From a virus (Duplodnaviria; Caudoviricetes): a stretch of 55,858 bases of DNA. The notes below the pieces were generated by a model, which was given only the letters and a program-made list of their open reading frames with translations, was not told the origin of the DNA and did no database searches. The DNA lies in IMG/VR virus record IMGVR_UViG_3300021364_000027, positions 1 through 55,858 of that record. The stretch is one strand, 5' to 3'. The translations under genes and the position numbers were made by a program. This document shows positions 1-45,270 of this stretch, piece by piece. The stretch's first letter is position 1. Every line of letters begins with the position of its first letter.

Positions 1-942
1 GTTCTTTTTGTTATCACTTAAATATGTTGGACGTAAATGTTCCGGATGCTGAATAACTTGTTGGAAAAATGCTTCTGGTCCATACCACATGTTATTATCC
101 TTAGCAAATTTGTATAATTTTTTCCAATGCGGCAAAGTAAAATTACTCCACGTAGGAGTAAGGTTATGAAAAGAATCTGGAAAGTCTTTTTTTAGTTGTT
201 TAATATTTTTTTCTATATTTGTCCAATTACTATTAAGCCTTACAGCATCATTAATTTCTCCAAACCCGTCTACACTATAACACCAATTAACCGTTTTAAA
301 TCTTTTTAATTCATTTACAAATTCTTGTTTGTATAAACTAGCATTTGTTACTATTAATATTTTTACAGTATCAGGAAGCTCCTTAAGAAATGGTATATAT
401 TCTTTAATCATAAATGGCTCGCCTCCTAATAAAGTTAATCTTTGCAATGATTTTGCTTGACGAGTAAACTTTGCCATTGTTTCTTTTGAGTCTATCCACT
501 TTGGATCTTTTGATGTCCAATTCGTAGGAAGAAAATTAAAATTTTTAGATAAATCATAAATGCCTGAACTACTTGTAGGTGTACAAATAATACAAGCAAG
601 ATTACACAAATTTTTTAAACTTACTTGGCTTTGTAATATGTTAGGTTGAGATATTAAAGGATTATAGCCAGGATAGTTCTCCTTTATCTGTTCTACACGT
701 AAACTAAAATTTGTATTTCTTTCTTTTGTCATACAAATTTTACAAGCTTCAGGCCAAAGATTTTGGGTAAAAATTTTTTTTTGCTCTGCTTGCCAACGTC
801 TCAATTTTTTTATACTTTTAAATCTATAATCAGTTGTCCAACAACAACCATAAAAAGTACCATCTACTTCTACGTTGACTTCATAATCTAGTACTGGACA
901 CCCTTGAGATACCGGAGGAATTGTATACGTTTTTTTTATCAT
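1..942 (-). CDS. Radical SAM protein with N-terminal Twitch/SPASM-like Cys domain (clade A), 3' end truncated by window edge
   Basis: Not in the ORF track. Hand translation from ATG at 942 (ATGA overlap with the upstream stop) gives MIKKTYTIPP..GCP..DGTFYGCCW..PEACKIC..NLCNLACIICTPTSSS..LLGGEPF. Confidence 0.88.
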   Translation of the reverse strand, partial: MIKKTYTIPPVSQGCPVLDYEVNVEVDGTFYGCCWTTDYRFKSIKKLRRWQAEQKKIFTQNLWPEACKICMTKERNTNFSLRVEQIKENYPGYNPLISQPNILQSQVSLKNLCNLACIICTPTSSSGIYDLSKNFNFLPTNWTSKDPKWIDSKETMAKFTRQAKSLQRLTLLGGEPFMIKEYIPFLKELPDTVKILIVTNASLYKQEFVNELKRFKTVNWCYSVDGFGEINDAVRLNSNWTNIEKNIKQLKKDFPDSFHNLTPTWSNFTLPHWKKLYKFAKDNNMWYGPEAFFQQVIQHPEHLRPTYLSDNKKN

Positions 943-2036
943 TCTACATACCTATTTTTTGTCATCTTTACTGTGTTAGTATTTAAGTTTGTAGATATGT
1001 GTTTGTTTTCCCAACGCTGACGTCTACTTTTTATACATGTATTTGTACAAATAGGATTACAGTCTGTGGGCAAGTTGCCTCCATGGTTTCTATTTGTCCA
1101 GCTTGATGTCAAATCATTAGAGAAAAATTTTCCATTTACAATATCATTTATTTCATTATAATATGCGTTATTCCAATTTTTACCATAAGCATTTTCATAC
1201 CTAGCTGTATGCTCTGGAAAATGTACAACTTGATAGCGTACATTGTATAAGAAACAGCAAGGAAAAATTTCTCCTGTGTGGGCTACAAAATATGCTTTTT
1301 CGTCATTTGAGGTTTTACAATAGATGTCTCCATTGTGATATTTTTCATCGCTCATACTGTGGACATATCTATCCCAATTCCATTGTGACCGTTTCTTTTC
1401 TAATTCTGTTCTTTCATATAACTTATCTAGCTCTCTATTGTCCAAGCAGGTATCAGGGCGTTCTTTGAATCTTGTGAATCCAATTTGTTTAGCAAGATCT
1501 TTGGCTTCTTCAATTTGATGCTCATTCCAAGGAAAAACAACCCACTGCCATTGTGGACGGCCTCCGGCTTTGACAAACGCTTTTGCGTTTTCCATAATCT
1601 TGTCAAAGTCTGTTCCTCTACGATATATTGGGTTAGTGTCCTTTAAACCATCAACACTGAAGTTCAATGTATACCTACTGCCTTGTAGTATTGTTGCCAT
1701 TTCGGCCCAGTACTCTGGTTTACGCAAACTACCGTTTGTGTGTATAACTATACTCTTATCAGTATTATACACTATGTGACGTAGCATGTCAAGAAAGTCA
1801 GGATGCATAGGCGGATCGTCAATACTACCACAAAACTGTATTTCTTCTATATCTTTGAAAAAATCAGCATCAACAATTTTTTTGAAAATATCAATGTGTA
1901 AAAAAATGTTTTTTTTAATAACAGGATTTAGTTTTAGTTCATCAAGTGGATCAGCACGACTACACCCAATACAATTGGCATTACAATTACTACTAATTTC
2001 AAATTGTAATACTTTTGGTTTATCTAAATAGTGCAT
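939..2036 (-). CDS. Radical SAM protein with C-terminal Twitch-like Cys domain (clade B)
   Basis: CNANCIGC motif, HTNGSLR, FSVDGL, C-terminal C..GEIFPCC..CTNTC. Confidence 0.9.
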   Translation of the reverse strand: MHYLDKPKVLQFEISSNCNANCIGCSRADPLDELKLNPVIKKNIFLHIDIFKKIVDADFFKDIEEIQFCGSIDDPPMHPDFLDMLRHIVYNTDKSIVIHTNGSLRKPEYWAEMATILQGSRYTLNFSVDGLKDTNPIYRRGTDFDKIMENAKAFVKAGGRPQWQWVVFPWNEHQIEEAKDLAKQIGFTRFKERPDTCLDNRELDKLYERTELEKKRSQWNWDRYVHSMSDEKYHNGDIYCKTSNDEKAYFVAHTGEIFPCCFLYNVRYQVVHFPEHTARYENAYGKNWNNAYYNEINDIVNGKFFSNDLTSSWTNRNHGGNLPTDCNPICTNTCIKSRRQRWENKHISTNLNTNTVKMTKNRYVE

Positions 2037-2971
2037 TTGTCAATCTCAATATCACTTCCACAAGTACATTCTTTGTAAGCACAAATAATTGGTTCATTTA
2101 AAAGATTTACTTTTTCTGGTGATGTTTTTATATTGCCCATACTTACCTTATTGTTACAAGCATTAGCAGGAACAACATCACCGTTTGCTTTTATAACTAC
2201 TAAATCTCTGCCAATATTACATGCCCATCCTTCGAAACGGTTTTTACCTGCTTGTATTAAATCATGATTGTTTTCTTGTGTAATAGAACCGTCGTCATAA
2301 TAACAGTTGATGCCTAAACTGGTTTTGTTGCGTTTTGTGCTGGGCCTATTAGCAGTGCTGCGATGTGCTTCAGCCATCCACTGTCTTTGCTCATCAGTGT
2401 AGGGCATCCAGTCTCGCTGTCCAAATTCAATTTGTAGCTTTTTTATCTGTATGGGCACCACAGTGTTGTCTCGCAGTTTTTCGTATATACCAACACACTT
2501 GTCCCACGCATTGATATCCATTAGCATTTGAATGTTGGTTTGACAATCCTGTTGTATTGTATTCACAACTTCAATGGTGTGATCTACATCAGCTTCTTGA
2601 TGGTGATAGCTAATGCTTACTTTATCCAAGTATGGCTTGGTTCTGTTCCACCATTTGATTGTTCTACTGCCGTTGGTTAGAATGTTTACTACACTATTAG
2701 GATCAACTGACTTAATGATTTCACTGAGCTTTGTAAAGTTCTTCCACACTGTAGGCTCGCCGCCTAGTATAGTATATATTCTATGATCATGTGTGCTTTG
2801 TTCTGTGATACGCCGTACTACAGTTTCACACTGTTCAATATCAGGCCAATACAAATCGCCACCATTGCTGTCCGGTGTACAGTATGTACATTTGAAATTA
2901 CACACATTGCTGAGTATCCAGTCTACTACCAGTATGTTGTTTCTTGTTTTTATTTTGTATAAGTTTGCCAT
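2024..2971 (-). CDS. Radical SAM protein with C-terminal Cys cluster (clade C)
   Basis: WILSNVCNFKCTYC, GGEPT, TNGSR, FEGWACNIG, C-terminal CAYKECTCGSD. Confidence 0.9.
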   Translation of the reverse strand: MANLYKIKTRNNILVVDWILSNVCNFKCTYCTPDSNGGDLYWPDIEQCETVVRRITEQSTHDHRIYTILGGEPTVWKNFTKLSEIIKSVDPNSVVNILTNGSRTIKWWNRTKPYLDKVSISYHHQEADVDHTIEVVNTIQQDCQTNIQMLMDINAWDKCVGIYEKLRDNTVVPIQIKKLQIEFGQRDWMPYTDEQRQWMAEAHRSTANRPSTKRNKTSLGINCYYDDGSITQENNHDLIQAGKNRFEGWACNIGRDLVVIKANGDVVPANACNNKVSMGNIKTSPEKVNLLNEPIICAYKECTCGSDIEIDKCTI

Positions 2972-3633
2972 AATAATTCAAATCTTTTCCAATCGTCAGG
3001 ATAATCAATGTCCAAACTTGCCATCCATGATGATTTGTAGAATCCTATTTTACCCGGTAGTCTATTTCCAGTTTGTACAAAATCTTTGTGCCGACTTACA
3101 AACACTGCTGAATTTATTTCGTACACAGATTCTAGTGTTTGTGTCAACGGCCAATATCCTACAGCATTAGGATCGTAATTCAATGGCTCTCCATCTTTCC
3201 ATAAAAAATTTTTAATTTCATTTGCTGTCGCTACACTATCGTATTCAGAGTCAGCGTAAAATTCTAACAAGTCGTCAATGTCATGTTCAGTAAAGAACGG
3301 TGCTGTAGCAAAAACCATTGCTATGTTATCTGCTGGTATGTTTGTTACTTGTTGAGACAGATGTTTTACCCACACATCTCCCGGACAAGTACCGGCATAC
3401 TGTGTATCTCTTTTGTGTAAATGTACTTTTTTATCTCCAGGAAGTTTTGAAACTATATCTAAAACTTCGTTACTTTCACTACTAACAAATATTTCTGAGA
3501 TGTGTTGACTTTTTTGTAATTGTTCTATTTTTATTTCGGTAATTCCATAAAGATACTTTCCCACTGGACGCAGATTCTTGCGTGGCACTCTTTCGCTGTT
3601 TCCTTTTATAGGTAGTATAGCAAGTGTGTTCAT
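2950..3633 (-). CDS. Acylneuraminate (CMP-nonulosonate) cytidylyltransferase, NeuA family
   Basis: ILPIKGNSERVPRKNLR N-terminal motif, ATAPF, TQTL..YEINSA, LDIDYPDDW. Start moved to 3633 (ATGA overlap with upstream stop). Confidence 0.88.
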   Translation of the reverse strand: MNTLAILPIKGNSERVPRKNLRPVGKYLYGITEIKIEQLQKSQHISEIFVSSESNEVLDIVSKLPGDKKVHLHKRDTQYAGTCPGDVWVKHLSQQVTNIPADNIAMVFATAPFFTEHDIDDLLEFYADSEYDSVATANEIKNFLWKDGEPLNYDPNAVGYWPLTQTLESVYEINSAVFVSRHKDFVQTGNRLPGKIGFYKSSWMASLDIDYPDDWKRFELLWQTYTK

Positions 3634-4757
3634 AATAATTCTTCTGCCCATGGATATGCTGCTAAAAACTCTACATTACATCTATAGTCCCAAATGTCCT
3701 TGCTGTAATGTTGTAGTAGACTGCGTTCAGTTGTACTTATTTGTCTGTGTTCGTACATGGTTTTAGTCTGGAATGTTCTCCAATTAGTATTCACATCAAT
3801 AAATTCTACAGCAGCAAATTGTTTGTAAAATTCTGTTCTAGCATCTAGCGGAATCAATCTAAAGTCCAAGAAACTAGGATAGTCAACTTCATTATAACTT
3901 ACTCTTGCTTGGGGAAACTGATTAGCCCAAGCAAAAAACTCTGGCATGTTGTGATATGTAAGCATACTCACAGCAGGTGTAAGTCCTACCATACAACGGC
4001 TGTTGTACATTCTAACAAAATTGCGTTCAATGGTTTGCCAACGAGCAGGGTACCGCTGATACTCCAATGCTGCTCCTACAGCGTCAATACTACACATTAG
4101 CTCTACATGCCGAAACTTTTCTAATGTTTGTAATATGCGAGTTTTGGCACTGGTACAGTTGGTTATGAATTCTATTTCAAGATCAGTTTTGCCTCGCTCT
4201 ACCAACTTGTACAAAAATTCTTCTACTTCCGGCATGATAAAAGGCTCACCGCCAGCAAATCTCAGCGTTTGTAAGTCTGGTAAATCCAGCACTAAATCCA
4301 GCAAGCGTCCTACATCTGTGTCCACGGTGCTGGGTATGCTACGAAGCAAGTCATTGTCCACACCATTAGCTTTTAATTCCAGTGCTAGGTTTGCTATTTG
4401 GTCACTGAAACCTCCGCTACACATTTTACACTGTAAATTACACTTGTTGCTGAGTCTTAGATCCAAGTGTCTTATGCTTTGATCAGTGCTGCCGTACTGT
4501 TGATTAACTCTGTGGCGTTTGCTTTCTCTGCCGTTGCGTTCGTTGTGCCAGCAACTTTCACATGCTGTGTTTTCTATGCTTGATTCTAAATCTTTGCGTA
4601 CAGTGTTCAGCCATGAATTTGATTTGTACCAAGCATTCATATCGTCAACTGTGTTCCAGTCTACCCTTATGTCACGCTTTTGTATACAGCAATGTCCTAC
4701 TCTGCCTGTGGTGTCTATATTAAAGCCGTTGTTGGTCAGTGTACAAAATTTATTCAT
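3630..4757 (-). CDS. Radical SAM protein with N-terminal Twitch/SPASM-like domain (clade A)
   Basis: FC..GRVGHCC..CESCW, then LDLRLSNKCNLQCKMC, FAGGEPF, SIDAVG..EYQRYP. Confidence 0.9.
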   Translation of the reverse strand: MNKFCTLTNNGFNIDTTGRVGHCCIQKRDIRVDWNTVDDMNAWYKSNSWLNTVRKDLESSIENTACESCWHNERNGRESKRHRVNQQYGSTDQSIRHLDLRLSNKCNLQCKMCSGGFSDQIANLALELKANGVDNDLLRSIPSTVDTDVGRLLDLVLDLPDLQTLRFAGGEPFIMPEVEEFLYKLVERGKTDLEIEFITNCTSAKTRILQTLEKFRHVELMCSIDAVGAALEYQRYPARWQTIERNFVRMYNSRCMVGLTPAVSMLTYHNMPEFFAWANQFPQARVSYNEVDYPSFLDFRLIPLDARTEFYKQFAAVEFIDVNTNWRTFQTKTMYEHRQISTTERSLLQHYSKDIWDYRCNVEFLAAYPWAEELL

Positions 4758-5772
4758 AACTGCCCTCTAGCCACAAATCGTTATTCAGTAGTTTTTGATA
4801 TATTGGCTCAAGATCTACTTCTATTGAGGTTCTATCTTTTCGAAAGTTTTGTTGTTTTACTCTACATTTATCAAACACTGTACCAATATCGTCTGTTTTA
4901 TTAATTTCAACACTTGGTCTTATAATTTCTGCGTTCCAACAATTGTGATTGTTTATAAATTCCAACTTTTTTCCAAACTTTAAAAACAATAAATTTTGAA
5001 ATTTAATTTGATTGTCGCCTATTAAGTCGTATAAAGCAAGTTTATCTTTTGTAAACAAATCAAAAAAAGTTTTTTCAACATCAGGAAACCATTGTGATAT
5101 AATATTTTGTTTATGAACATACAGATAATCTGCTATCAACGGCTTACTAAATCTTACACTTAATATATGAGACATAACTTGTGTACTAATATTTTCTAAA
5201 TCGTTAGCACTATAATTTATAATATCTAAACATCTTTGTAAATCACCAGACTGAAAATAAAATAAACAATCTGGTCTTGTTTGTAAAATTAAATCATATT
5301 CGCTGTCTATTAAACTATAACCTCTTGCTGCTCCCCAGTGCTGTGACATAAAATGTAATGCATGTAATCTACGTTTATAATCAAATTTTTTTGAAGATCC
5401 GCCATATAGAAGATTAGGAGCATGTGTATCAATATTTAAAATATTTTTAAAAGTTTTGTCTTTGGCATTTTCTTTTATTATATTATTAACAGTATTCAAA
5501 AATTTACTAGTTCCCTCAATAATATATTTTTTTGGCTTCCAATATTTTAAATAATTTTCATGTATGTAATTTAAATCTTGAATTTCAACATCATATAGAT
5601 TTTGTGGCCTGTTCTTTGCATCTGTAGCATCGCATATCGTTTCTGTGTTTGTGGTATGAATAAAAACATCAAATTGGTGTTGCGGATTTTCGTCAACAAC
5701 AAAGCGTTGAAATAATTCTGATCCTAATTGAGCACATCTAGCTTGTCCTCTTAACACTACAGCAATTTTCAT
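4750..5772 (-). CDS. Putative glycosyltransferase-like protein
   Basis: MKIAVVLRGQAR start, DVFIHT and YDLILQTRPD motifs resemble an uncharacterised GT-like family seen in sugar-modification loci; context supports this. Confidence 0.5.
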   Translation of the reverse strand: MKIAVVLRGQARCAQLGSELFQRFVVDENPQHQFDVFIHTTNTETICDATDAKNRPQNLYDVEIQDLNYIHENYLKYWKPKKYIIEGTSKFLNTVNNIIKENAKDKTFKNILNIDTHAPNLLYGGSSKKFDYKRRLHALHFMSQHWGAARGYSLIDSEYDLILQTRPDCLFYFQSGDLQRCLDIINYSANDLENISTQVMSHILSVRFSKPLIADYLYVHKQNIISQWFPDVEKTFFDLFTKDKLALYDLIGDNQIKFQNLLFLKFGKKLEFINNHNCWNAEIIRPSVEINKTDDIGTVFDKCRVKQQNFRKDRTSIEVDLEPIYQKLLNNDLWLEGSYE

Positions 5773-6440
5773 TTTACTATCTCAAACTTGTATCTGTCTA
5801 TTAAAGATTCGTGGCAATAATGTGTTTCATAACTATGAGGACAAAATGGATTAACTACTCTAGTGTAATTTTTTGTTTTTAAATATTCACTTATCTCATC
5901 AACTTCTTCTTCGGCTGTTTCGATACTTATTAATCCAACAACATAGTTATCCCATGGCCATGCTTTTAATATTTCAAATTCACTTCCTTCAGTATCAAGA
6001 GCAAGATAATCAATATTTTTTTTGTATCTATATCTTTGTAATAATCTTGCAGGTGATACACATCTTTTCATCACTGTTTTACCATATTTTTCGTGATATA
6101 TTGCATGATGACTGCGTAAGTGTTTTTGTATACCGCTTAGTGCTTCAGACGCCCATTCAAGTTCTTCTATCCTGCCTTCGCATTCTACAAATTCAATTGT
6201 TCCATCAAAGTTATATACACAAGCATTTAAAGGATTTTTTCTGCTTACATGACACTCTTTGTAGTATTTTGAATTTGGCTCGACAGCTACTCCAAACCAA
6301 TCTAATTTTTTTTCTAAAACATAGCAACTGCTGATTCTATTTCCACTGCAAGCACCTAATTCGACAAAGGATCCGTTGCGTTTATAATCATACACTTCGG
6401 CTACCCATTGATCATTTCTATGTAAACTATTCCATTTCAT
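5769..6440 (-). CDS. FkbM-family SAM-dependent methyltransferase
   Basis: FVELGA..G..S, W.GVAVEPN, IDYLALDTEGSEFEIL. Confidence 0.88.
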   Translation of the reverse strand: MKWNSLHRNDQWVAEVYDYKRNGSFVELGACSGNRISSCYVLEKKLDWFGVAVEPNSKYYKECHVSRKNPLNACVYNFDGTIEFVECEGRIEELEWASEALSGIQKHLRSHHAIYHEKYGKTVMKRCVSPARLLQRYRYKKNIDYLALDTEGSEFEILKAWPWDNYVVGLISIETAEEEVDEISEYLKTKNYTRVVNPFCPHSYETHYCHESLIDRYKFEIVK

Positions 6441-9529: not shown

Positions 9530-9746
9530 CGTATACCAACTTTACATCCTTACCAGGCCCAACTTTACTGGGCAAATCTCCGTACTGATCTATGTACCAT
9601 TCTATTACAGCCTTATACCAGTTCCAACTATTATGGTGTGCTGCTTTGTTAAATTGCCAAATGTTGTTGTTTGTTGCTTCTATTGTACTTAGAGCTCTTG
9701 CACTTTCTAATTGCAATTCTCTAGTTGTAAAATTACTTAAATCCAT
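9522..9746 (-). CDS. Small Trp-rich hypothetical protein (74 aa)
   Basis: Fills the gap exactly and is translationally coupled on both sides; no recognisable motif. Confidence 0.7.
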   Translation of the reverse strand: MDLSNFTTRELQLESARALSTIEATNNNIWQFNKAAHHNSWNWYKAVIEWYIDQYGDLPSKVGPGKDVKLVYDV

Positions 9747-34865: not shown

Positions 34866-34885
34866 TAAATAACTACGCATATTTA
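34866..34885. promoter_or_regulatory. TAAATA motifs on both strands of a divergent gap
   Basis: Plus TAAATA at 34866-34871 and minus TAAATA at 34880-34885, each followed by GGAG before a start codon. Confidence 0.5.
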
Positions 34886-34902
34886 AAAACATCGGAGTCA
34901 TA

Positions 34903-40406: not shown

Positions 40407-41778
40407 CGGCTTCCTTACATAGTGCAAAGAAATCACTCATTTCAGGAAATGTTTTTTCAAAATCTGTACCACGTCTACGGTCGTGTTCTTTAAAGAAGTT
40501 CCAAAAGTCTTTGCGACCTTCTCTAATTTTGTTTACATCGTATCTAGTTGTTTTCATGTAATCAACAACACGTCTAAATTTTTCATATTCCATTTCACTG
40601 AAATGTTCTTTGCTGCCTTCTTTAACATTATCTTTAATAAATTGTAAATGGCTTTCCATATAGGGTATATAAATTTCTTTAGGCAAGATATTTATGTCAT
40701 ACTGCAAAGGTTCTTTTAGGTAAGGTGTATCAAAATGTATACGTTGCCAACGTCCGCTGTTTACATCATTATACATACGCCTTTGTTCTAATATTTTTTC
40801 AAGCAATGTTTGGAATGTTGTGACACTGAACAAACTAAATGTAATCATGTATGTCACAGGTGCGGTAGTATTACGCATAAAATAATCAAAATTACGTTCA
40901 AATACCTGTAAGTCTAACCCGTCACGAATGTACTCAGCACGTTCGTTCCAAGTATCTAAACTTGTAAACAATTTAAAACTTTTTATTTTGTTTTGTGTAA
41001 GCAAACTTTTTACGCTGTCTGTAAACTTTTCTAGTTGTTTTTCTTTGCCACCGAAATTACTGTTTACATTTAGCTCAAGATTGGGCTTAGGATCCTTTTC
41101 AAGTTCGTCAAACATCCTATACATACTTTTTTGCATAGTAGGTTCGCCGCCTGTAATACGTAAAATGTTTAAGGTTTTACTAACTTCGGGCCACCATTTC
41201 CACCAAGCTCGGAGATAAGGATTTGAATCTTCTTCATACACCCGGAACCAGTCAATATCACATCTATGATTTTTACTTTGCGTATATGGTCCATGTTGTC
41301 TTATTTCATTGTAAAATCTGCTGCTCGCTTTTGGATGACAATATCCGCAACGGAAATTACATTCGTTGCCAAACGAAATTTCAATATACTCAGGATTAAC
41401 ATTAAAATCCCACTTATTAAATTTTACTTCTTTTAACCTGTCTTCGTTGTAGATGCTACCGCTGCGAATATGTCTGTCACTGATATAATCATCACCCATA
41501 TTTTCAACATTCCAGCAATACTGACATCCAGCACATTGTTTGCCTTCTAGCATTTCTTTGCGTTCTTGCTTTTTATGTTGTGTGTTATGCAATGCACTAG
41601 GATTTGTTAACAACTCGTCAATATCAATTTTATGAGGTGCTGGATGATAACAACTATGTGTTTCACCTGTTTGTAAATAAATTGTTGTATGATACCATTT
41701 TGCAAAACAAAAAGTCGGCGAAAAGTGCCGCTTTGTGATATCATTGATATATTTTACTCTGTCTGTTTGGTTCGACAT
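40393..41778 (-). CDS. Radical SAM protein (clade A, divergent)
   Basis: FCFAKW..HSCYHP..CQYCW, CNFRCGYC, TGGEP, AEYIRDG. Confidence 0.9.
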   Translation of the reverse strand: MSNQTDRVKYINDITKRHFSPTFCFAKWYHTTIYLQTGETHSCYHPAPHKIDIDELLTNPSALHNTQHKKQERKEMLEGKQCAGCQYCWNVENMGDDYISDRHIRSGSIYNEDRLKEVKFNKWDFNVNPEYIEISFGNECNFRCGYCHPKASSRFYNEIRQHGPYTQSKNHRCDIDWFRVYEEDSNPYLRAWWKWWPEVSKTLNILRITGGEPTMQKSMYRMFDELEKDPKPNLELNVNSNFGGKEKQLEKFTDSVKSLLTQNKIKSFKLFTSLDTWNERAEYIRDGLDLQVFERNFDYFMRNTTAPVTYMITFSLFSVTTFQTLLEKILEQRRMYNDVNSGRWQRIHFDTPYLKEPLQYDINILPKEIYIPYMESHLQFIKDNVKEGSKEHFSEMEYEKFRRVVDYMKTTRYDVNKIREGRKDFWNFFKEHDRRRGTDFEKTFPEMSDFFALCKEADETF

Positions 41779-42701
41779 TATCGTCCTTTACGTGGTATCC
41801 TTGAAGGATTCATATACACTGTTTTAAAAAAGTTGCTTTGCTGTGCATTTAAACATTCTTCTGCAATAGGCAATTCCAGTTCGTGAATAAGTTTTTCACC
41901 TAGTACTTCTGTTTGTTCATCAATGTCGGACATATCTTTATTGTCCCAATAATTGTTTAGCCATTCGAAATCTCGAACATTAACAAAGTCCCAATCTGTA
42001 CACATTGTTTTATACAAACCTTCTCGTGCTCCGTGGATGGCCCAACGACCATTCTCAACATCTGCGCCAACCATTAACCAAACATACAACCTGTGTAAGT
42101 TTTTCCAATGATTTTTTTGAAACGCTTCTACAGTAGGTTTCATACCTCTGTCAAGTGCCATTTTTACACCTTCGCGGAAACCAGCACGCCATGCTTGATG
42201 CGGTGTAGCATTATTCATAATTTCACTATGACACTGATTGATTTGTATGTATTCTAAGTCCCAACAAAAATCTACCTGTGCATGTAGATTATCTGGATCT
42301 GCATTTTCATGCGTTTTCATGTTAAGAACTTTTTCTTTAGGCCAGCACTTTATTCCGCCATTGCCATACATAAGTCCGTTAATTGTATTTCTAGCACTCC
42401 AACTTACAACACAATTTTCAAATGCAACTTCTCTATTCCAGTGTGCATCTTCGTGACTATCTAAATCAAATTCTTTGCCAAGGAAATCTGCATTTACAAT
42501 ATTATCACCGTCAATAGTAATAAATCTATCAGTTTCACTTAGTTCAGCACATGCTTTGTGTGCTGCATCTGAACCTTCTACACCATGTACACGTTTTGCC
42601 CAAGGTACTTTAGTACACAAGTCTGCATAATTTTTTTCAGCGTTTGGCTCATCATAACTTAGATATATAATATCATAATCTAAAATTCTAAATTTACTCA
42701 T
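41778..42701 (-). CDS. Glycosyltransferase-like (GT-A) protein
   Basis: YDIIYLSYDEPNA, RVHGVEG..AH, FITIDGD (DxD), YGNGGIK, AGFREG. Confidence 0.6.
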   Translation of the reverse strand: MSKFRILDYDIIYLSYDEPNAEKNYADLCTKVPWAKRVHGVEGSDAAHKACAELSETDRFITIDGDNIVNADFLGKEFDLDSHEDAHWNREVAFENCVVSWSARNTINGLMYGNGGIKCWPKEKVLNMKTHENADPDNLHAQVDFCWDLEYIQINQCHSEIMNNATPHQAWRAGFREGVKMALDRGMKPTVEAFQKNHWKNLHRLYVWLMVGADVENGRWAIHGAREGLYKTMCTDWDFVNVRDFEWLNNYWDNKDMSDIDEQTEVLGEKLIHELELPIAEECLNAQQSNFFKTVYMNPSRIPRKGR

Positions 42702-43273
42702 TCGGAGACCTCATACGAATACTTCTCAAATCTTTTTATAGTATATACGCTTACAGCTGAAGAGTCAAGTTCTAAATCGGAGGCAAAGTTAACTTCTACT
42801 TTACCATTTTTTAAATCATCTATTGCACAATAAATGTATTGGTATAACACATGGGGATCGTGTGCTTTCGTAATACTAAATCCCATATCAGATCTAAAAC
42901 TTAGTTTGTTTGATAAAAGATTATCTTGGATTGCACGGTCTAATTCAACAGTCCACTTTTTTTCGTTTTTATTATGAGTAATAATAACATCTGGTCTGTT
43001 TTTATTATTTGCAGGAACGAGATATATTTGGTCGTTGATATCAAACTGGTATTCGTCTTCTATGTATCTATGAGATAGTATATGTTGTTTTGTGACTGTA
43101 TCAAATAACACAACATAATTACTAACTACTTCTTTGCCAGTAATTAAATTGTAAACATCTTCAATGTCTACTACTATGTAGTTTCCTAACTCTTTGTAAT
43201 TGTTTTTGATACTGGTAATATTACCATCTTCATCAAAATAAACATAACGCTTGTTGTTTACTTCTAACATCAT
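42698..43273 (-). CDS. Hypothetical protein
   Basis: Translationally coupled ORF within the operon; no confident motif. Confidence 0.75.
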   Translation of the reverse strand: MMLEVNNKRYVYFDEDGNITSIKNNYKELGNYIVVDIEDVYNLITGKEVVSNYVVLFDTVTKQHILSHRYIEDEYQFDINDQIYLVPANNKNRPDVIITHNKNEKKWTVELDRAIQDNLLSNKLSFRSDMGFSITKAHDPHVLYQYIYCAIDDLKNGKVEVNFASDLELDSSAVSVYTIKRFEKYSYEVSE

Positions 43274-44112
43274 ATTCCTAATTTATTTTCGTATGTGCTT
43301 ATAACATGATCATTACAAAAATTATCTTCTGTGTAATGAAATATACCACTTTGTGTATAATTACCTATTGTTAGTTTGCAATCGTTATCAAGATACACAC
43401 CTAGTTGTTTTTGCCAACTATCTACCCATAATTTATCCCAATTTTGATTATGTAATTTCATATGTGTAAAAGTTGGATAACTAGTTTTTAAAGTAATTTG
43501 ATCTTCACATTGTAAAACTTTTGCTGCAATCGCACTGCTTACATCCACACTGGGCCATTTTTGGAAATACTTGCCTCCAGCATATTGTCCGTAAAACAGT
43601 TCCCAATTGTGCATAATTGTTTCCACCCATTTAAAAAATTCGTGTGCTTGATCTGATTTTTTAAACCAATGAAATCCGGCATATAAATTAGGCAAATGAT
43701 GATTTCTAAATGCTTTTCTATAGTATGTATTATCTGATATTTCACCTCTATAATTTAAAACATCACTCACATAATATACTTGCTTTGTTTTTAGTAATTC
43801 GTACCAATGAGAAATATCAGATAAAACCAGCATATCAGTGTCAATTACTGCTGTTTCATCAAAAGGTGTAGCATGATAAATTTTCCAACGATTTTCAACT
43901 TTCCATGTTGAATTCTCTGCTTCATCTTTCCAAGGTATATCTACAATATGATCGTACAAAACTTTATATTTGTCATCAACAACGTCATTGGTAATAAGTG
44001 CAATTTTACAATCAGGATTAGTTAATCTTAGACTCATTGCAGCAACATTTGCCTGCTGAACATAATCAACATCGCTATTCTGTGCAAATAATGTAAAATT
44101 AAAGCTCATCAA
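43270..44112 (-). CDS. Putative GT-A glycosyltransferase (GT8-like)
   Basis: A.SLR..NP..IALIT, TPFDETAVIDTD (DxD), FTHMK. Confidence 0.65.
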   Translation of the reverse strand: MMSFNFTLFAQNSDVDYVQQANVAAMSLRLTNPDCKIALITNDVVDDKYKVLYDHIVDIPWKDEAENSTWKVENRWKIYHATPFDETAVIDTDMLVLSDISHWYELLKTKQVYYVSDVLNYRGEISDNTYYRKAFRNHHLPNLYAGFHWFKKSDQAHEFFKWVETIMHNWELFYGQYAGGKYFQKWPSVDVSSAIAAKVLQCEDQITLKTSYPTFTHMKLHNQNWDKLWVDSWQKQLGVYLDNDCKLTIGNYTQSGIFHYTEDNFCNDHVISTYENKLGI

Positions 44113-44929
44113 TTAACCTATTCAAACTAAATTTATTCATAATATGAACATTACAACCTTCAACTGTTGCAGGAAAATAATCTATACTATCTTTCTTTTG
44201 CAGTAAAAATTTTACTTTATCGTTTTTAATGTCTAAGCAAATGTCTTTGTCTAAAGTATAATATTTTTTCCCCGGTAATTGTTTTACAAAATTACCCGAC
44301 ATATGTCCATTCATTATGTGTATTGCAATGCTAAATGCAAAATCATTCCTAAACGTAGTTGCTGTAATTCTATATAAATTTTTGTAATGATACCAATATT
44401 CTTTGATGTGTGATACAAGATTAAAAAACAACTCTGTTTGTTTGTTTTTTCTAAAATAGATTACTGTTGCCCAATAAAAATCAATGCCGTTTGCAGATAT
44501 ATGTTTAAATTCACTTACATCTCTCCATCCAGATAATTCAGTGGAATTTTTATACAACATTACATCATTTGATTGTTCAAAACAATACTTCAAACAATCA
44601 TTACACAAAATATAATCAGTATCCATAATGATAGTTTCATCGTATGGGGATAGTTCGTATGCCCTGTGTCTATCTAAATTTTTCCATTGTAGTTTATACT
44701 CTTTGTATACACCATCTCTGTATGTTTTATAATTGTTGTTCTCGCTTGATATTTCTATTACGTTATCAAACTCGTGCTGATAGTTTACTTCTAAATACGA
44801 AGCATTATCTGTGACAAGAGATACTGGAATATTTAAATACTGTTTAATTCTTGCAGCACAAAATATTGCTTGCTTTATGTAATCTACTTGTGTGTTATTA
44901 CATGCAATTAGTAGAGCACCTTTGCTCAT
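44099..44929 (-). CDS. Putative GT-A glycosyltransferase (GT8-like), paralogue of 43270-44112
   Basis: SPYDETIIMDTD (DxD), WATVIYF, RND.AFSIA, HIMNK. Confidence 0.65.
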   Translation of the reverse strand: MSKGALLIACNNTQVDYIKQAIFCAARIKQYLNIPVSLVTDNASYLEVNYQHEFDNVIEISSENNNYKTYRDGVYKEYKLQWKNLDRHRAYELSPYDETIIMDTDYILCNDCLKYCFEQSNDVMLYKNSTELSGWRDVSEFKHISANGIDFYWATVIYFRKNKQTELFFNLVSHIKEYWYHYKNLYRITATTFRNDFAFSIAIHIMNGHMSGNFVKQLPGKKYYTLDKDICLDIKNDKVKFLLQKKDSIDYFPATVEGCNVHIMNKFSLNRLIDEL

Positions 44930-45270
44930 GTGTCAAACATACCTTCAACTGATCTATTTGTTTTTAGCTTATCGTATTCTACATAATATTTGTTGCTTGC
45001 TCTAAAATATGTATCTGATACGCCTTGTACAAACTCCTGCAAGTTTACATTAACAGGAATATCATTGCTATCAACAATAACTGTATCTTCTTGCCCTGCA
45101 GATATCATACTATAGCAAAACGTTATAAGTTCTTTTGTAGAAATAAACGTGCCTCCGCCATAATAATATAATAAATCTTCTTGATACTTTTCTTTCAAGA
45201 TGCGCTTTTGATTATCAAGTGTAATCATGTAATTACTAAAATCAAGAGCTTTTTTTAATCTTTCATCCAT
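44926..45270 (-). CDS. Hypothetical protein, first gene of the sigma70-driven operon
   Basis: GGAGG RBS; coupled to the downstream gene. Confidence 0.75.
   Translation of the reverse strand: MDERLKKALDFSNYMITLDNQKRILKEKYQEDLLYYYGGGTFISTKELITFCYSMISAGQEDTVIVDSNDIPVNVNLQEFVQGVSDTYFRASNKYYVEYDKLKTNRSVEGMFDT

What the first reader, a model, noticed from the sequence alone, without database searches (positions are those of the whole stretch)
1..45270. A 45-kb phage-encoded hypermodification locus with 18 radical SAM enzymes, next to the tail-fibre genes
Seen: about 48 genes, nearly all tailoring enzymes. They include 18 CxxxCxxC radical SAM proteins, ~9 GT-like proteins, 4 SGNH-like proteins, 3 methyltransferases, 3 Fe/2OG oxygenases, NeuA, an SDR epimerase, DegT, an amidinotransferase and a QueC-like ATPase. 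The block directly abuts tail genes and continues past the left edge. I see no obvious signal peptides, membrane spans, flippase or polymerase, so the product is probably cytoplasmic. Known: Twitch/SPASM radical SAMs act on sugars and aminocyclitols (BtrN-type) and on peptides. Inference: the locus builds a complex, radical-tailored glycan or other post-translational coat on virion proteins, or less likely on DNA. I know of no characterised phage pathway with radical SAM expansion on this scale.
Basis: partly seen in the sequence, partly recalled or inferred. Interest (0 to 1): 0.93.

Follow-up and report, generated by a model that had tools for sequence, protein, structure and literature searches.

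The report
Jumbo-phage sugar-tailoring island, 18 radical SAMs
A fragment of an uncultured marine giant phage carries, beside its tail-fibre genes, a conserved block of about 47 soluble enzymes, including 18 radical SAM enzymes and at least 8 glycosyltransferase-like proteins, that most likely builds an unusual sugar coat whose target is still unknown.

Summary
The window is a whole IMG/VR virus record. It carries 54 ORFs of at least 100 aa. Eighteen have CxxxCxxC, and all 18 match Radical_SAM.

The radical SAMs fall into three old paralog families:
- 7 with an N-terminal twitch domain (NCBIfam NF033640, all above its cut-off);
- 5 with the same Cys-rich domain at the C-terminus;
- 6 short ones with a different C-terminal Cys motif.

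The other enzymes are sugar chemistry:
- an NDP-sugar 4,6-dehydratase, a short DegT and a StrB1-like amidinotransferase (E 1e-52);
- a CMP-sugar synthetase, an FkbM methyltransferase and a PP-loop ATPase;
- 4 GT-B-like, 2 GT-A-like and 2 GT8-like glycosyltransferases.

No protein has a membrane span.

The block is phage-borne and not a chimera. It is gene-by-gene syntenic with a 170-kb relative that has a T4-type portal and capsid gene, closest to Atu_ph07 and PA5oct jumbo phages. Independent assemblies bridge the enzyme/fibre junction. Related records hold 6 to 25 radical SAM matches.

Bacterial homologues of the twitch enzymes sit in O-antigen-type loci, which fits sugar or glycan tailoring. 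The acceptor is not shown. The island starts at a conserved sigma-70-type promoter, whereas the fibre genes have T4-late-type motifs, so adjacency does not mean co-expression.

Smaller versions have been noted in print, but none is characterised.

The parts
1..942 (-). g1, radical SAM family B (N-terminal twitch); runs off the left edge
   Evidence: PF04055 E 7.1e-10; NF033640 174.9 bits, cut-off 170
939..2036 (-). g2, radical SAM family A (C-terminal twitch/SPASM-like)
   Evidence: PF04055 E 7.5e-12, SPASM 17 bits, below cut-off; alignment A8
2024..2971 (-). g3, radical SAM family C (short, C-terminal Cys motif)
   Evidence: PF04055 E 2.6e-12; alignment A7
2950..3651 (-). g4, CMP-sugar synthetase-like cytidylyltransferase
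   Evidence: PF02348 35.8 bits, cut-off 22.6; PseF TIGR03584 49 bits, cut-off 205.7
3630..4757 (-). g5, radical SAM family B
   Evidence: PF04055 E 2e-7; NF033640 227.5 bits
4750..5772 (-). g6, unknown soluble protein
   Evidence: no Pfam or NCBIfam hit
5769..6440 (-). g7, FkbM-family methyltransferase
   Evidence: PF05050 E 1.4e-13
6437..7558 (-). g8, radical SAM family A; the listed TTG start is probably about 35 codons too far upstream
   Evidence: PF04055 E 6.3e-7; N-terminal overhang against its paralogs in A8
7440..8450 (-). g9, radical SAM family A
   Evidence: PF04055 29.3 bits, SPASM 21.8 bits
8450..9529 (-). g10, radical SAM family A
   Evidence: PF04055 E 6.6e-8; 80% identical ortholog in G001
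9746..10642 (-). g11, unknown; paralog of g27
   Evidence: blastp E 9e-32; no family hit
10629..12254 (-). g12, repeat N-terminus plus a g43-like GT-A domain
   Evidence: blastp against g43 E 4e-31 over residues 317-533; a 12/12 sigma-70-like site lies just upstream at 12288-12260
12328..14181 (+). g13, repeat-rich fibre-like protein inside the island; absent from G001
   Evidence: sequence repeats; Atlas leads to gp9/10, Mtd_N and gp37 at 0.87-0.89, leads only; no hit in related loci
14181..14849 (+). g14, unknown
   Evidence: no family hit
14815..15471 (-). g15, weak Asp/Arg-hydroxylase-like cupin
   Evidence: PF05118 E 0.0054, below cut-off
15498..16304 (+). g16, unknown
   Evidence: no family hit
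16323..17018 (+). g17, PP-loop ATPase-like
   Evidence: SGGADS at residue 22; only TilS_N at E 0.041
17005..18255 (+). g18, radical SAM family B
   Evidence: NF033640 315.5 bits
18243..19139 (+). g19, radical SAM family C
   Evidence: PF04055 E 3.4e-11
19130..20191 (+). g20, radical SAM family C
   Evidence: PF04055 E 4.3e-15
20145..21191 (-). g21, radical SAM family A
   Evidence: PF04055 E 2.7e-7
21230..21979 (+). g22, Asp/Arg beta-hydroxylase-family oxygenase
   Evidence: PF05118 E 2.5e-9
21951..23108 (+). g23, unknown
   Evidence: no family hit
23050..24087 (-). g24, radical SAM family C
   Evidence: PF04055 E 1.5e-9
24080..24988 (-). g25, radical SAM family C
   Evidence: PF04055 E 5e-13
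24985..26364 (-). g26, radical SAM family B
   Evidence: NF033640 394.6 bits; 4007 homologues at E <= 0.001 among 8000 scored candidates
26361..26966 (-). g27, unknown; paralog of g11
26957..28045 (-). g28, GT-B-fold glycosyltransferase-like
   Evidence: AF2 pLDDT 87.6; Foldseek hits Tps1, SenB, GtfA and T4 BGT
28023..28982 (-). g29, paralog of g28
   Evidence: blastp E 1e-45
28961..29902 (-). g30, NDP-sugar 4,6-dehydratase/epimerase (SDR)
   Evidence: PF01370 E 2.9e-37; dTDP-glucose 4,6-dehydratase and LegB are the best NCBIfam hits, both below cut-off
29926..30528 (+). g31, short (200 aa) DegT-family aminotransferase-like protein
   Evidence: PF01041 E 1e-16; 54% identical to S-SCSM2R ORF305, 195 aa
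30494..31327 (-). g32, DUF6071/SGNH-like (inconclusive)
   Evidence: virus-only Atlas clusters, one set with DUF6071 on 13% of members; conserved GCS and GxGN residues in A5
31302..32360 (-). g33, member of the g28 family
   Evidence: blastp E 9e-10 against g29; alignment A3
32357..33076 (-). g34, paralog of g32
   Evidence: blastp E 1e-40
33060..34097 (+). g35, amidinotransferase (StrB1-like)
   Evidence: PDB 1bwd E 1.2e-52, residues 18-344; YCPRD, HIDST and FHC aligned; 64% identical to S-SCSM2R ORF309
34077..34901 (-). g36, paralog of g38; weakly GDSL-like
   Evidence: NF047475 E 0.004; blastp against g38 E 1e-4
34903..36255 (+). g37, member of the g28 family
   Evidence: blastp E 3e-9 against g28
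36189..36947 (-). g38, DUF6071
   Evidence: PF19547 E 1.1e-10
36940..37908 (-). g39, radical SAM family C
   Evidence: PF04055 E 2.9e-7; orthologs of 53-58% identity in distant relatives
37901..39184 (-). g40, radical SAM family B
   Evidence: NF033640 390.6 bits; SPASM 50.2 bits; twitch part matches BtrN at E 0.0018
39177..40436 (-). g41, radical SAM family B
   Evidence: NF033640 381.6 bits
40393..41778 (-). g42, radical SAM family B
   Evidence: NF033640 313.4 bits; 35% identical over 457 aa to a Ralstonia phage RsoM2USA ORF
41778..42701 (-). g43, GT-A-fold glycosyltransferase-like (DGD motif)
   Evidence: AF2 pLDDT 80.8; PDB hits SunS, PBCV-1 A64R and WrtF; BFVD hits viral GT2-like proteins
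42698..43273 (-). g44, conserved unknown
   Evidence: 21 homologues in 21 loci
43270..44112 (-). g45, GT8-like (weak)
   Evidence: profile A2 against glycogenin E 0.0033
44099..44929 (-). g46, paralog of g45
44926..45270 (-). g47, conserved small unknown; first gene of the island on this side
   Evidence: 23 homologues in 23 loci
45288..45316 (-). sigma-70-type promoter-like site (TTGACA, 17 nt, TATACT) in the g48/g47 gap
   Evidence: best site of the scan, 11 of 12; present in 10 of 15 distinct upstream regions of relatives
45320..47305 (-). g48 and g49, paralogous Gly/Ser/Thr-rich, Cys-poor proteins; probably structural
   Evidence: TATAAATA lies 27-34 nt upstream of g49 and is kept in 10 of 12 relatives
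47335..52767 (-). g50, g51 and g52, tail-fibre paralogs with a shared N-terminus
   Evidence: PHROG tail and tail-fibre families; Collar domain in g52 E 1.1e-14
52770..53378 (-). g53, conserved baseplate/tail-region protein of Atu_ph07- and Rak2-type jumbo phages
   Evidence: phrog_11259 E 3.5e-68; 52% identical to Phosso, 51% to Atu_ph07
53400..55856 (-). g54, C-terminal 818 aa of a giant structural protein (4581 aa in G001)
   Evidence: Atu_ph07 has a 4449-aa structural protein two genes from its g53 homologue

Best explanation
The window is a fragment of an uncultured aquatic jumbo myovirus of the Atu_ph07/PA5oct/Rak2 type. CheckV rates the record 15% complete, which implies a genome of roughly 350-370 kb.

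Coordinates 1-45270, and further DNA to the left, form a conserved, purifying-selected island of soluble enzymes. I read it as making unusual activated sugars, tailoring them by radical chemistry, and assembling them into a glycan in the infected cell's cytoplasm.

Shown by homology:
- an NDP-hexose 4,6-dehydratase (g30), a short DegT-type aminotransferase (g31) and a StrB1-type amidinotransferase (g35);
- a CMP-sugar synthetase (g4), an FkbM methyltransferase (g7), a hydroxylase (g22) and a PP-loop ATPase (g17);
- 8 glycosyltransferase-like proteins;
- 18 radical SAM enzymes, each with an auxiliary Fe-S (twitch/SPASM-like) domain and none with room for an N-terminal peptide-recognition domain.

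Inferred:
- g30, g31 and g35 act in that order to give an amino-, then guanidino-, deoxyhexose.
- The radical SAMs act on sugar or nucleotide-sugar intermediates. BtrN and BlsE are the nearest solved relatives of families B and A.
- The glycosyltransferases attach the product to a cytoplasmic acceptor.

My preferred acceptor is the phage's own fibre or virion proteins. The island itself is probably transcribed from host-type (early) promoters, ahead of the late fibre genes.

Odds: sugar/glycan-tailoring island about 0.85; virion proteins as the acceptor about 0.4.
For: Phage origin.
- G001 is a 170-kb IMG/VR relative. It is collinear with window 8.4-55.8 kb at 70-78% nucleotide identity and syntenic gene by gene from g10 to g54.
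- Its portal is 50-51% identical to those of Phosso and Atu_ph07, and it carries the start of a Gp23 capsid gene.
- g53 is 51-52% identical to the same phages.

Not a chimera. Contigs from three other runs bridge the junction: 10,626 nt over 42645-53270 with 18 differences, 3,094 nt over 42540-45633 with none, and 1,361 nt over 44856-46216 with none. The stretch is held by 20 rows of 11 studies.

Conservation.
- 28 of 29 related loci have at least 3 CxxxCxxC ORFs. GT-B-like genes occur in 28, the amidinotransferase in 25 and fibre genes in 20.
- The order g50-g49-g47-g46-g45-g43-g42 persists down to 23-45% identity.
- dN/dS against G001 is 0.04-0.11 for the 10 radical SAM pairs that could be computed, with dS saturated.
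- Whole related records hold 21, 16, 22, 6 and 25 Radical_SAM matches.

Sugar chemistry.

Bacterial context.
- Profile A6 found 245 encoding stretches, of which 77 loci were kept, at 32-46% identity.
- In both loci whose neighbours I annotated (2 of 77), the neighbours are GT4, GDSL-like, SDR, PhyH and a Wzt ABC ATPase.
- Across the 77 loci the recurrent neighbours are Wzt in 10, a family-C-like radical SAM in 10, GDSL-like in 8, SDR in 7 and GT4 in 5.

Cytoplasmic product: none of 54 proteins has a clear membrane span.

For a virion acceptor.
- Fibre genes flank the island, and a fibre-like gene (g13) lies inside it.
- Fold hits of g43 and g28 include protein-glycosylating enzymes: SunS, PBCV-1 A64R, GtfA and SdgB.
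Against: - No experiment and no direct sequence feature links the product to any acceptor.
- The island has its own conserved sigma-70-type promoters. Three of the 10 best sites lie in the 527 nt of intergenic gaps. g49, g50 and g53 instead carry T4-late-type motifs. Neighbourhood therefore does not imply co-expression with the fibres.
- In cyanophage S-SCSM2R the homologous short-DegT/amidinotransferase cassette lies among small non-structural genes.
- Bacterial homologues sit in exported O-antigen-type loci. This fits remodelling of the host surface equally well.
- The fold matches of the GT models are weak (TM 0.28-0.45), and the GT8 match is E 0.003.
- None of the 18 radical SAMs reaches the cut-off of any functionally defined NCBIfam equivalog.
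- 12 genes have no assignable function: g6, g11, g14, g16, g23, g27, g44, g47 and the four DUF6071-like genes.
- g31 has only about half the length of a normal DegT enzyme.
Confidence: 0.45

Rival explanations
1. The island remodels the host's surface glycan during infection. The soluble phage enzymes build or alter an undecaprenyl-linked O-antigen- or capsule-type chain in the cytoplasm, and the host's own ABC transporter exports it. This changes the cell surface early in infection, which could exclude other phages or stop progeny from sticking to debris.
For: - Bacterial homologues of the twitch radical SAMs lie in loci with Wzt ABC-transporter ATPases, GT4, SDR and GDSL-like genes.
- The island starts at conserved sigma-70-type promoters, which in T4-like phages mark early genes; that rule is my recall.
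- The authors of PMC7029224 (passages read) propose host O-chain modification for the glycosyltransferases in the pelagimyophage host recognition cluster.
Against: - The window has no priming transferase, flippase, polymerase, ligase or transporter, and no membrane protein at all. Everything after synthesis would have to be borrowed from the host.
- An investment of 45 kb or more, kept next to the fibres across relatives of 23-45% identity, is large for an exclusion function.
- The host is unknown, so no match to a host glycan locus could be tested.
Confidence: 0.25
2. The island makes a diffusible aminoglycoside- or aminocyclitol-like pseudo-oligosaccharide, a phage-encoded secondary metabolite, and not a polymer-bound glycan.
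For: - The best solved relative of g35 is the streptomycin enzyme StrB1, with its catalytic residues kept.
- The twitch domain of g40 matches BtrN (E 0.0018).
- DegT, a 4,6-dehydratase and GT-B enzymes are also typical of aminoglycoside clusters (my recall).
- PMC12801897 (passages read) calls the homologous cyanophage trio 'antibiotic synthesis genes'.
Against: - There is no cyclitol synthase, exporter or self-resistance gene in the window.
- Eight glycosyltransferase-like genes in three families, diverging faster than the sugar-making genes, look more like a glycan locus.
- The bacterial homologues sit in Wzt-type polysaccharide loci.
Confidence: 0.1
3. The radical SAMs modify proteins or peptides directly (cross-links, epimerisation, hydroxylation of fibre proteins), and the sugar enzymes are a separate function that happens to be interleaved.
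For: - Many SPASM/twitch enzymes are peptide maturases, and low-scoring NCBIfam hits include many RiPP maturases.
- Asp/Arg-hydroxylase-like genes g15 and g22 could act on proteins.
- Fibre genes are adjacent.
Against: - The radical SAM motif starts at residue 18-25 in families A and C, and family B has a twitch domain at its N-terminus. None has room for the usual N-terminal peptide-recognition domain.
- No small precursor-like ORFs fit in the tightly packed island; the intergenic gaps total 527 nt.
- The neighbouring fibre proteins have 0-5 cysteines.
- The nearest solved relatives of families A and B act on sugars: BlsE at E 1e-5 and BtrN.
Confidence: 0.08
4. The island hypermodifies the phage DNA with a complex glycan or amino-sugar adduct.
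For: - The fold hits of the g28 model include T4 DNA beta-glucosyltransferase.
- The early-type promoters fit a DNA-modification timetable.
- Radical SAM, PLP and PP-loop enzymes occur in known base-hypermodification pathways (my recall).
Against: - The window has no nucleotide kinase, hydroxymethylase, transglycosylase (DpdA/TGT) or QueC/D/E-type hit. g17 has only a PP-loop motif, and the QueE hits of family C score 22-35 bits against cut-offs above 200.
- Eight glycosyltransferases and a CMP-sugar synthetase exceed any known DNA glycosylation system (my recall).
Confidence: 0.05
5. Artefact: an assembly chimera, or a bacterial polysaccharide island mis-binned as viral.
For: The record is a linear fragment rated 15% complete. 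Homologues of the radical SAMs exist in bacterial MAGs.
Against: - Independent contigs from three studies bridge the junction between enzymes and tail genes.
- There is synteny with a 170-kb record that holds portal and capsid genes.
- In the six bacterial loci I compared, only the radical SAMs match, apart from one further ORF in L046.
Confidence: 0.02

Closest known systems
Host recognition cluster (HRC) of pelagimyophages and cyanomyophages (PMC7029224; passages read)
   Same: A large hypervariable island in the structural region next to a giant structural gene and the tail fibres. [quoted passage not shown] Mean size is 44.6 kb in pelagimyophages.
   Different: A different phage lineage: the portal is closest to Atu_ph07, PA5oct and Rak2-type jumbo phages, not to cyano- or pelagimyophages. 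The paper gives no radical SAM counts in the passages I read; its figures and supplements were not seen. Here there are 18 in 45 kb, and 6-25 per related record. I could not show that g54 is a VrlC homologue.
Cyanophage S-SCSM2R ORF301-310 cassette (PMC12801897; passages read; record PQ898602.1)
   Same: It holds a short DegT/AHBA_syn protein (195 aa, 54% identical to g31), an amidinotransferase (64% identical to g35), one radical SAM, five glycosyltransferases and 2OG oxygenases in one run of genes.
   Different: It has one radical SAM instead of 18, and that one is only distantly related (E 4e-5 to g5). It does not lie next to tail fibres. The authors read it as antibiotic synthesis, without tests.
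NCBIfam NF033640, twitch domain-containing radical SAM protein
   Same: g1, g5, g18, g26, g40, g41 and g42 all score above the family cut-off over nearly the full model.
   Different: The family has no assigned function. In bacteria it occurs as 1-8 copies per locus. Here there are seven copies plus eleven radical SAMs of two other families.
BtrN and BlsE, twitch radical SAM enzymes acting on an aminocyclitol and a sugar nucleoside
   Same: An auxiliary [4Fe-4S] twitch domain and no peptide-recognition domain. The g40 twitch part matches BtrN (E 0.0018), and the family A profile matches BlsE (E 1.1e-5).
   Different: The similarity is marginal. Domain order is inverted in family B, where the twitch domain is N-terminal. 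The TIGR04466 BlsE hits score 19-26 bits against a cut-off of 400. These are not orthologs.
StrB1 inosamine-phosphate amidinotransferase (PDB 1bwd)
   Same: E 1.2e-52 over the whole length. The Asp (YCPRD), His (HxDST) and Cys (FHC) positions are aligned.
   Different: Only moderately similar, as read from the printed alignment. There is no streptidine pathway around it, and its substrate here is unknown.
Virus-encoded virion glycosylation: chlorovirus PBCV-1 A64R, mimivirus fibril glycans, mycobacteriophage capsid and tail glycosylation (recalled, apart from the fold hits)
   Same: Soluble, virus-encoded glycosyltransferases and sugar-nucleotide enzymes working in the cytoplasm. The g43 model hits PBCV-1 A64R and a mycobacteriophage Ardmore protein.
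   Different: To my knowledge none of these systems uses radical SAM enzymes. Virion glycosylation has not been shown for this lineage.

Membership tests
Radical SAM superfamily (PF04055) | CxxxCxxC cluster-binding motif | tested here: met
   18 of 54 ORFs have it; none of the other 36 does
Radical SAM superfamily (PF04055) | Pfam score at or above the gathering cut-off (29.5 bits) | tested here: met
   15 of 18 are above it. g9 scores 29.3, g40 24.6 and g42 25.5; g40 and g42 pass NF033640 instead
Radical SAM superfamily (PF04055) | SAM-binding GGE motif | tested here: met
   GGEP is invariant in family B and GGE is invariant in family C. Family A has G..D at the aligned place
NF033640 N-terminal twitch radical SAM | Full-length score above 170 bits | tested here: met
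   7 of 7 family B proteins score 174.9-394.6 bits. The 11 others score 27-47 bits and are not members
SPASM/twitch auxiliary-cluster radical SAMs | Extra conserved cysteines outside the core that could bind a second Fe-S cluster | tested here: met
   Family B has C21, C39, C96 and C99. Family A has 5 invariant C-terminal Cys. Family C has 4 invariant C-terminal Cys (C269, C291, C325, C330) plus C332, which is nearly invariant. PF13186 is above its cut-off in 5 of 18. Cluster binding itself cannot be tested here
RiPP-maturase type SPASM enzymes | N-terminal peptide-recognition (RRE/PqqD-like) domain and a nearby precursor peptide gene | tested here: not met
   The motif starts at residue 18-25 in families A and C, and family B has an N-terminal twitch domain. 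Intergenic space totals 527 nt. All RiPP equivalog scores are far below their cut-offs
Viperin / MoaA / QueE / BtrN / BlsE equivalogs | Score above the curated NCBIfam cut-off | tested here: not met
   The best is viperin_w_prok at 47.7 bits against 180. MoaA scores <= 44 against 284, QueE <= 35 against 206-260, and BlsE <= 26 against 400
Amidinotransferase (StrB1/AGAT fold) | Full-length similarity and the Asp-His-Cys catalytic residues | tested here: met
   1bwd E 1.2e-52. D108 and C332 of the chain are aligned to identical residues, and the His motif is kept. The residue roles are recalled
GT-B glycosyltransferases | Two Rossmann-like domains and fold similarity to solved GT-B enzymes | tested here: met
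   g28 model pLDDT 87.6. All 40 listed Foldseek PDB hits are GT-B enzymes; E from 6.9e-5, TM 0.33-0.45. No Pfam GT family hit. Activity is untested
GT-A glycosyltransferases (GT2-like) | GT-A fold with a DxD motif | tested here: met
   g43 model pLDDT 80.8. Hits are SunS, A64R, WrtF, BcsA, RmlT and TarP at E >= 4e-4. D64-G65-D66 is invariant in A4
GT8 (glycogenin-like) | Significant profile match that includes the DxD region | tested here: inconclusive
   Profile A2 against glycogenin E 0.0033-0.05, over positions 3-108 only. No Pfam hit
SGNH/GDSL hydrolases | Blocks I-V with a Ser-Asp-His triad | tested here: inconclusive
   g38 is DUF6071. g36 matches a GDSL family at E 0.004. g32/34 have invariant G-C-S, G-x-G-N and D/H residues, but their profile found no PDB SGNH hit
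QueC / 7-deazaguanine pathway | QueC family match plus QueD, QueE, FolE and DpdA partners | tested here: not met
   g17 has only SGGADS. No QueC hit in Pfam or NCBIfam, and no partner genes in the window
Host recognition cluster of T4-like marine myophages | Hypervariable island between a VrlC-type giant structural gene and the neck genes, holding tail fibres plus glycan enzymes | tested here: inconclusive
   The giant structural gene, the fibres and the enzyme island are present. I could not show that g54 is homologous to VrlC: it matches only a 90-aa stretch in PA5oct-type phages. The lineage is not Straboviridae-like
Atu_ph07/PA5oct/Rak2-type jumbo myoviruses | Hallmark structural proteins closest to that group, and a jumbo genome size | tested here: met
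   The portal of the syntenic relative G001 is 50-51% identical to Phosso and Atu_ph07, 49.6% to PA5oct and 46% to E. coli jumbo phages of 350-380 kb. g53 is 42-52% identical to the same set. CheckV completeness of 15% for 55.9 kb and 48% for 170 kb implies about 350-370 kb. No closed genome is available

The most novel reading that the evidence does not exclude
A cosmopolitan lineage of aquatic jumbo phages makes a virus-specific 'radical glycocalyx'. Eighteen to 25 or more twitch/SPASM radical SAM enzymes, in three families that diverged long ago, carry out a series of distinct radical reactions on amino- and guanidino-deoxy sugars. Eight or more soluble glycosyltransferases then mount the products on the branched tail-fibre apparatus. 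There they would serve as a fast-diversifying host-recognition or shielding layer. This would be the first viral pathway, and one of very few glycan pathways anywhere, that depends on radical SAM chemistry at this scale. Agrobacterium phage Atu_ph07 would carry the ancestral three-gene version.
Probability: 0.3. Interest if true: 0.9.

Novelty: new variant of a known kind. Interest (0 to 1): 0.75.

Why it matters
Radical SAM enzymes are rare in phages, and radical chemistry is rare in glycan biosynthesis. Here one virus lineage spends about 15% of a genome of roughly 350 kb on them, keeps them under strong purifying selection, and turns up in many seawater, plankton, marsh and other aquatic metagenomes. 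Whatever it makes is probably new sugar chemistry with an ecological role in phage-host recognition or competition.

The work also makes the question testable. It defines three enzyme families. It proposes a dehydratase, aminotransferase and amidinotransferase route to a guanidino sugar. It identifies bacterial counterparts in O-antigen-type loci. It points to cultured phages with small versions of the island (Atu_ph07, Vibrio phages of the K566 type, cyanophage S-SCSM2R).

It also gives the function-less family NF033640 and DUF6071 a working context.

Tried and rejected
Searches that found nothing or little:
- Megablast of the tail region against cultured phages found no match.
- A search of bacterial genomes with g26 alone found no relative. 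A seven-paralog alignment was too divergent to search with. A closer alignment (A6) then worked.
- Profile searches of PDB sequences with the g28, g43 and g32 families gave only chance-level hits. Folding solved the first two. The g32/34 family stays unresolved.
- NCBIfam on 20 non-radical-SAM proteins added almost nothing.
- There are no tRNA genes.
- The C-terminus of g54 gave only a 90-aa match to PA5oct-type virion proteins, so the VrlC link is untested.

Promoter scans:
- The T4 late-promoter octamer is not enriched in the window as a whole: 5 found against 8.3 expected. Only its conserved position upstream of g49 is informative.
- The whole-region count of sigma-70-like sites is also not above the shuffles: 74 against 68.5. 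Only the best sites and their positions carry weight.

RNA run X18. It gave small contigs, 90-95% alike, over g39-g43, g46/47 and g52/53. These are contigs of a relative in an RNA library and do not show transcription. Parts without cover mean nothing.

dN/dS. dS is saturated (>1), so the ratios are rough. g14, g25, g27, g40 and g48 gave no value.

Readings I considered and rejected:
- A RiPP cluster, because there is no recognition domain and no precursor gene.
- A 7-deazaguanine pathway, because there are no QueC, QueD or DpdA genes.
- A bacterial island or chimera, because independent contigs bridge the junction and the block is syntenic with a phage record.

Papers. I read passages only of PMC7029224 and PMC12801897. 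All other papers were seen only in search listings. Supplements are closed and figures are not held, so radical SAM counts in published HRC maps may exist that I could not see.

Full report
WHAT IS THERE. The window is a complete IMG/VR virus record of 55,858 bases. It is linear, and CheckV rates it 15% complete. I took 54 non-nested ORFs of at least 100 aa from the 65 listed. Eighteen carry CxxxCxxC, and none of the other 36 does. All 18 match Pfam Radical_SAM at E <= 3.2e-5, and 15 reach the gathering score.

THREE RADICAL SAM FAMILIES. An all-against-all BLAST joins the 18 into one group that splits into three old families, 20-40% identical within each.
- Family B (g1, g5, g18, g26, g40, g41, g42) has a Cys-rich twitch domain in front of the radical SAM core. 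All seven pass the cut-off of NCBIfam NF033640, 'twitch domain-containing radical SAM protein'.
- Family A (g2, g8, g9, g10, g21) starts with the core at residue 18. g8 starts at residue 53 as listed, but its TTG start is probably about 35 codons too far upstream. The family carries the same cysteine pattern at the C-terminus.
- Family C (g3, g19, g20, g24, g25, g39) is short. It has a different C-terminal motif of four invariant cysteines and one nearly invariant.

None of the 18 reaches the cut-off of a functionally defined family; viperin, MoaA, QueE, BlsE and all RiPP maturases score far below. The nearest solved relatives are BlsE for family A (E 1e-5) and BtrN for the twitch part of g40 (E 0.0018). 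Family C matches only generic cores. None has room for an N-terminal peptide-recognition domain.

THE OTHER ENZYMES.
- Firm: g30, an NDP-sugar 4,6-dehydratase-type SDR. g35, an amidinotransferase with E 1.2e-52 to StrB1 and its Asp, His and Cys positions aligned. g7, an FkbM methyltransferase. g4, a CTP_transf_3 cytidylyltransferase. g22, an Asp/Arg-hydroxylase-family oxygenase.
- g31 is a DegT-family protein of only 200 aa. That short length is conserved in 23 loci and in a cultured cyanophage.
- Pfam found no glycosyltransferase at all, so I built family alignments from orthologs in related loci and folded two. The g28/29/33/37 family is GT-B (pLDDT 87.6; every listed PDB hit is a GT-B enzyme). 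g43, and by paralogy the C-terminus of g12, is GT-A with an invariant DGD (pLDDT 80.8). The g45/46 profile hits glycogenin weakly (E 0.003). That makes eight GT-like genes.
- The 'SGNH-like' four (g32, g34, g36, g38) are a DUF6071-related, virus-rich group with only weak GDSL signals.
- The 'QueC-like' g17 has a PP-loop motif and nothing more.
- g11 and g27, read as methyltransferases, are unverified, and I did not find a third oxygenase.
- No protein has a convincing membrane span.

IT IS A PHAGE, AND THE JUNCTION IS REAL.
- g50-52 are tail-fibre paralogs: PHROG tail families, and a Collar domain in g52.
- g53 is 51-52% identical to proteins of Sinorhizobium phage Phosso and Agrobacterium phage Atu_ph07, and 42-46% identical to other jumbo phages.
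- A 170-kb IMG/VR relative (G001) is collinear with window 8.4-55.8 kb at 70-78% nucleotide identity and syntenic gene by gene from g10 to g54.
- In G001, g54 is the end of a 4,581-aa protein. The portal is 50-51% identical to Phosso and Atu_ph07 and 49.6% to PA5oct. The record ends in the start of a Gp23 capsid gene.
- The 9.5-kb stretch from g39 to g48 is held by 20 rows of 11 studies labelled seawater, marine plankton, marsh and aquatic.
- Contigs of three runs from other studies bridge the enzyme/tail junction with 0-18 differences.

A chimera or a bacterial island is thus very unlikely.

HOW CONSERVED AND HOW LARGE.
- Of 29 related IMG/VR loci (each up to 10 kb either side of the g40 homologue), 28 have at least three CxxxCxxC ORFs. 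GT-B-like genes occur in 28, the amidinotransferase in 25 and fibre genes in 20; absences are partly contig ends.
- The order fibre, g49, g47, g46, g45, g43, then radical SAMs survives down to relatives of 23-45% protein identity.
- Five whole related records hold 21, 16, 22, 6 and 25 Radical_SAM matches.
- Against G001, dN/dS is 0.04-0.11 for the ten radical SAM pairs that could be computed, with dS saturated.
- The sugar-making genes and the g39-g43 core are the most conserved (86-93% identity). The GT-B and DUF6071-like genes diverge fastest (46-74%). That is the pattern of a glycan locus whose building blocks stay while linkages change.

CONTEXT OF THE BACTERIAL HOMOLOGUES.
- A profile of family B found 245 encoding stretches in bacterial genomes. 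Seventy-seven loci were kept, at 32-46% identity. Most are from Bdellovibrionota and Bacteroidota, with some from Myxococcota and Elusimicrobia.
- I annotated the neighbours in two loci on long contigs. They are a GT4, GDSL-like proteins right beside the radical SAM, an SDR epimerase, a PhyH dioxygenase and a Wzt ABC-transporter ATPase with its Wzt_C domain.
- Across the 77 loci the recurrent neighbours are Wzt (10 loci), a family-C-like radical SAM (10), GDSL-like (8), PhyH (7), SDR (7) and GT4 (5).
- Some Bdellovibrionota loci hold 4-8 such radical SAMs in the same order as g40-g39-g18-g42, with flanks unlike the phage.

So in cells these enzymes live in O-antigen-type glycan loci. This is the best independent support for sugar or glycan tailoring.

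TIMING.
- The single gap between g48 and g47 holds the best sigma-70-type site of the region (TTGACA, 17 nt, TATACT).
- The site is kept, in otherwise diverged sequence, in 10 of 15 distinct upstream regions of relatives.
- Three of the ten best sites in the whole window lie in the 527 nt of intergenic gaps, in front of g12, g17 and g47.
- Upstream of g49 lies TATAAATA, the T4 late-promoter consensus (recalled). It is kept in 10 of 12 relatives, and g50 and g53 have similar TAAATA motifs.

My inference is that the island is read by the unmodified host polymerase, early, and the fibre genes late.

WHAT IT MOST LIKELY DOES. The chemistry points to nucleotide sugars.
- Inferred route: dehydratase (g30), then aminotransferase (g31), then amidinotransferase (g35), giving an amino and then a guanidino deoxyhexose.
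- A CMP-activated sugar comes from g4.
- Methyl, hydroxyl and acyl changes come from g7, g22, g15 and the DUF6071 group.
- The radical steps are of unknown kind.
- Eight soluble transferases assemble the product on something in the cytoplasm.

Possible acceptors, with my odds:
- The phage's own fibre or virion proteins, about 0.4. For this: the fibres on one side, the fibre-like g13 inside, fold hits to protein-glycosylating enzymes, and precedents in other viruses (recalled).
- The host's surface glycan, about 0.25. For this: the early promoters, the Wzt context of the bacterial homologues, and the view taken in PMC7029224.
- An aminoglycoside-like small molecule, 0.1.
- Direct protein modification by the radical SAMs, 0.08.
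- DNA, 0.05.

WHAT IS KNOWN.
- PMC7029224 (passages read) describes the 'host recognition cluster' of pelagimyophages. It is a 44.6-kb mean island with fibres, GT8-rich glycosyltransferases and radical SAM cassettes, read as host O-chain modification.
- PMC12801897 (passages read) lists an AHBA_syn/DegT, an inosamine amidinotransferase and a radical SAM in cyanophage S-SCSM2R as 'antibiotic synthesis genes'. Two of these are 54% and 64% identical to g31 and g35.
- Cultured Vibrio phages of about 250 kb carry clusters of about five related radical SAMs, annotated only generically.
- Atu_ph07 has three CxxxCxxC ORFs, annotated as hypothetical, within 10 kb downstream of its g53 homologue and fibre gene.
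- Nine paper searches found no functional study of any of these, nothing on DUF6071, and nothing on radical SAM expansions in jumbo phages.

VERDICT. The kind of island has been noticed before in other marine myophages. This lineage, the scale, the three-family structure, the proposed guanidino-sugar route, the bacterial O-antigen-type counterparts and the promoter split are new here. I rate it a new variant of a known kind, interest 0.75.

Noticed in passing
window 45288-45316 (-) and 47332-47339 (-): A near-consensus sigma-70-type promoter sits in the g48/g47 gap. A T4-late-type TATAAATA sits 27-34 nt upstream of g49. Both are conserved in relatives, while the sequence around them diverges. 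This suggests two temporal classes side by side.
   Followed up: yes
window 12328-14181 (+): g13 is a 617-aa repeat-rich, fibre-like protein encoded in the middle of the enzyme island. It has no homologue in G001 or in the 29 related loci, so it looks like a variable structural gene inside the island.
   Followed up: partly
L039 (Atu_ph07, MF403008.1) locus 19025-25186: Three ORFs annotated as hypothetical (352, 365 and 360 aa) carry CxxxCxxC. They lie just downstream of the g53 homologue and a fibre gene with the g50-52 N-terminus. This is a small syntenic version of the island in a cultured phage.
   Followed up: partly
L043-L046, L052 (Bdellovibrionota MAG contigs): These bacterial loci hold 4-8 radical SAMs of families B and C, in the same order as g40-g39-g18-g42 at 39-45% identity. 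Their flanks do not match the phage. This could reflect gene exchange or hint at the host range.
   Followed up: partly
G001 (L031-L032), record 21-42 kb: The 170-kb relative has a second, smaller enzyme cluster outside the main island. It holds two more CxxxCxxC ORFs, three g28-family genes, a g30-like SDR and a second amidinotransferase 35% identical to g35.
   Followed up: no
window 29926-30528 (+): The DegT-family protein is only about half the normal length (200 aa). It is conserved at that length in 23 related loci and in cyanophage S-SCSM2R (195 aa), so this is a distinct short form and not a broken gene.
   Followed up: partly
window 6437-7558 (-): The listed TTG start of g8 gives a 35-residue N-terminal extension that its paralogs lack, and it overlaps g9 by 119 bases. 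The real start is probably the internal Met.
   Followed up: partly
window 10629-12254 (-): g12 has three tandem copies of a domain of about 100 residues in front of its GT-A domain. Its G001 ortholog is longer (702 aa).
   Followed up: no
L041 (Ralstonia phage RsoM2USA) locus 11345-13284: A g42-like twitch radical SAM (35% identical over 457 aa) lies next to a g38-like DUF6071 protein in another cultured jumbo phage. The same pairing occurs in the window.
   Followed up: no
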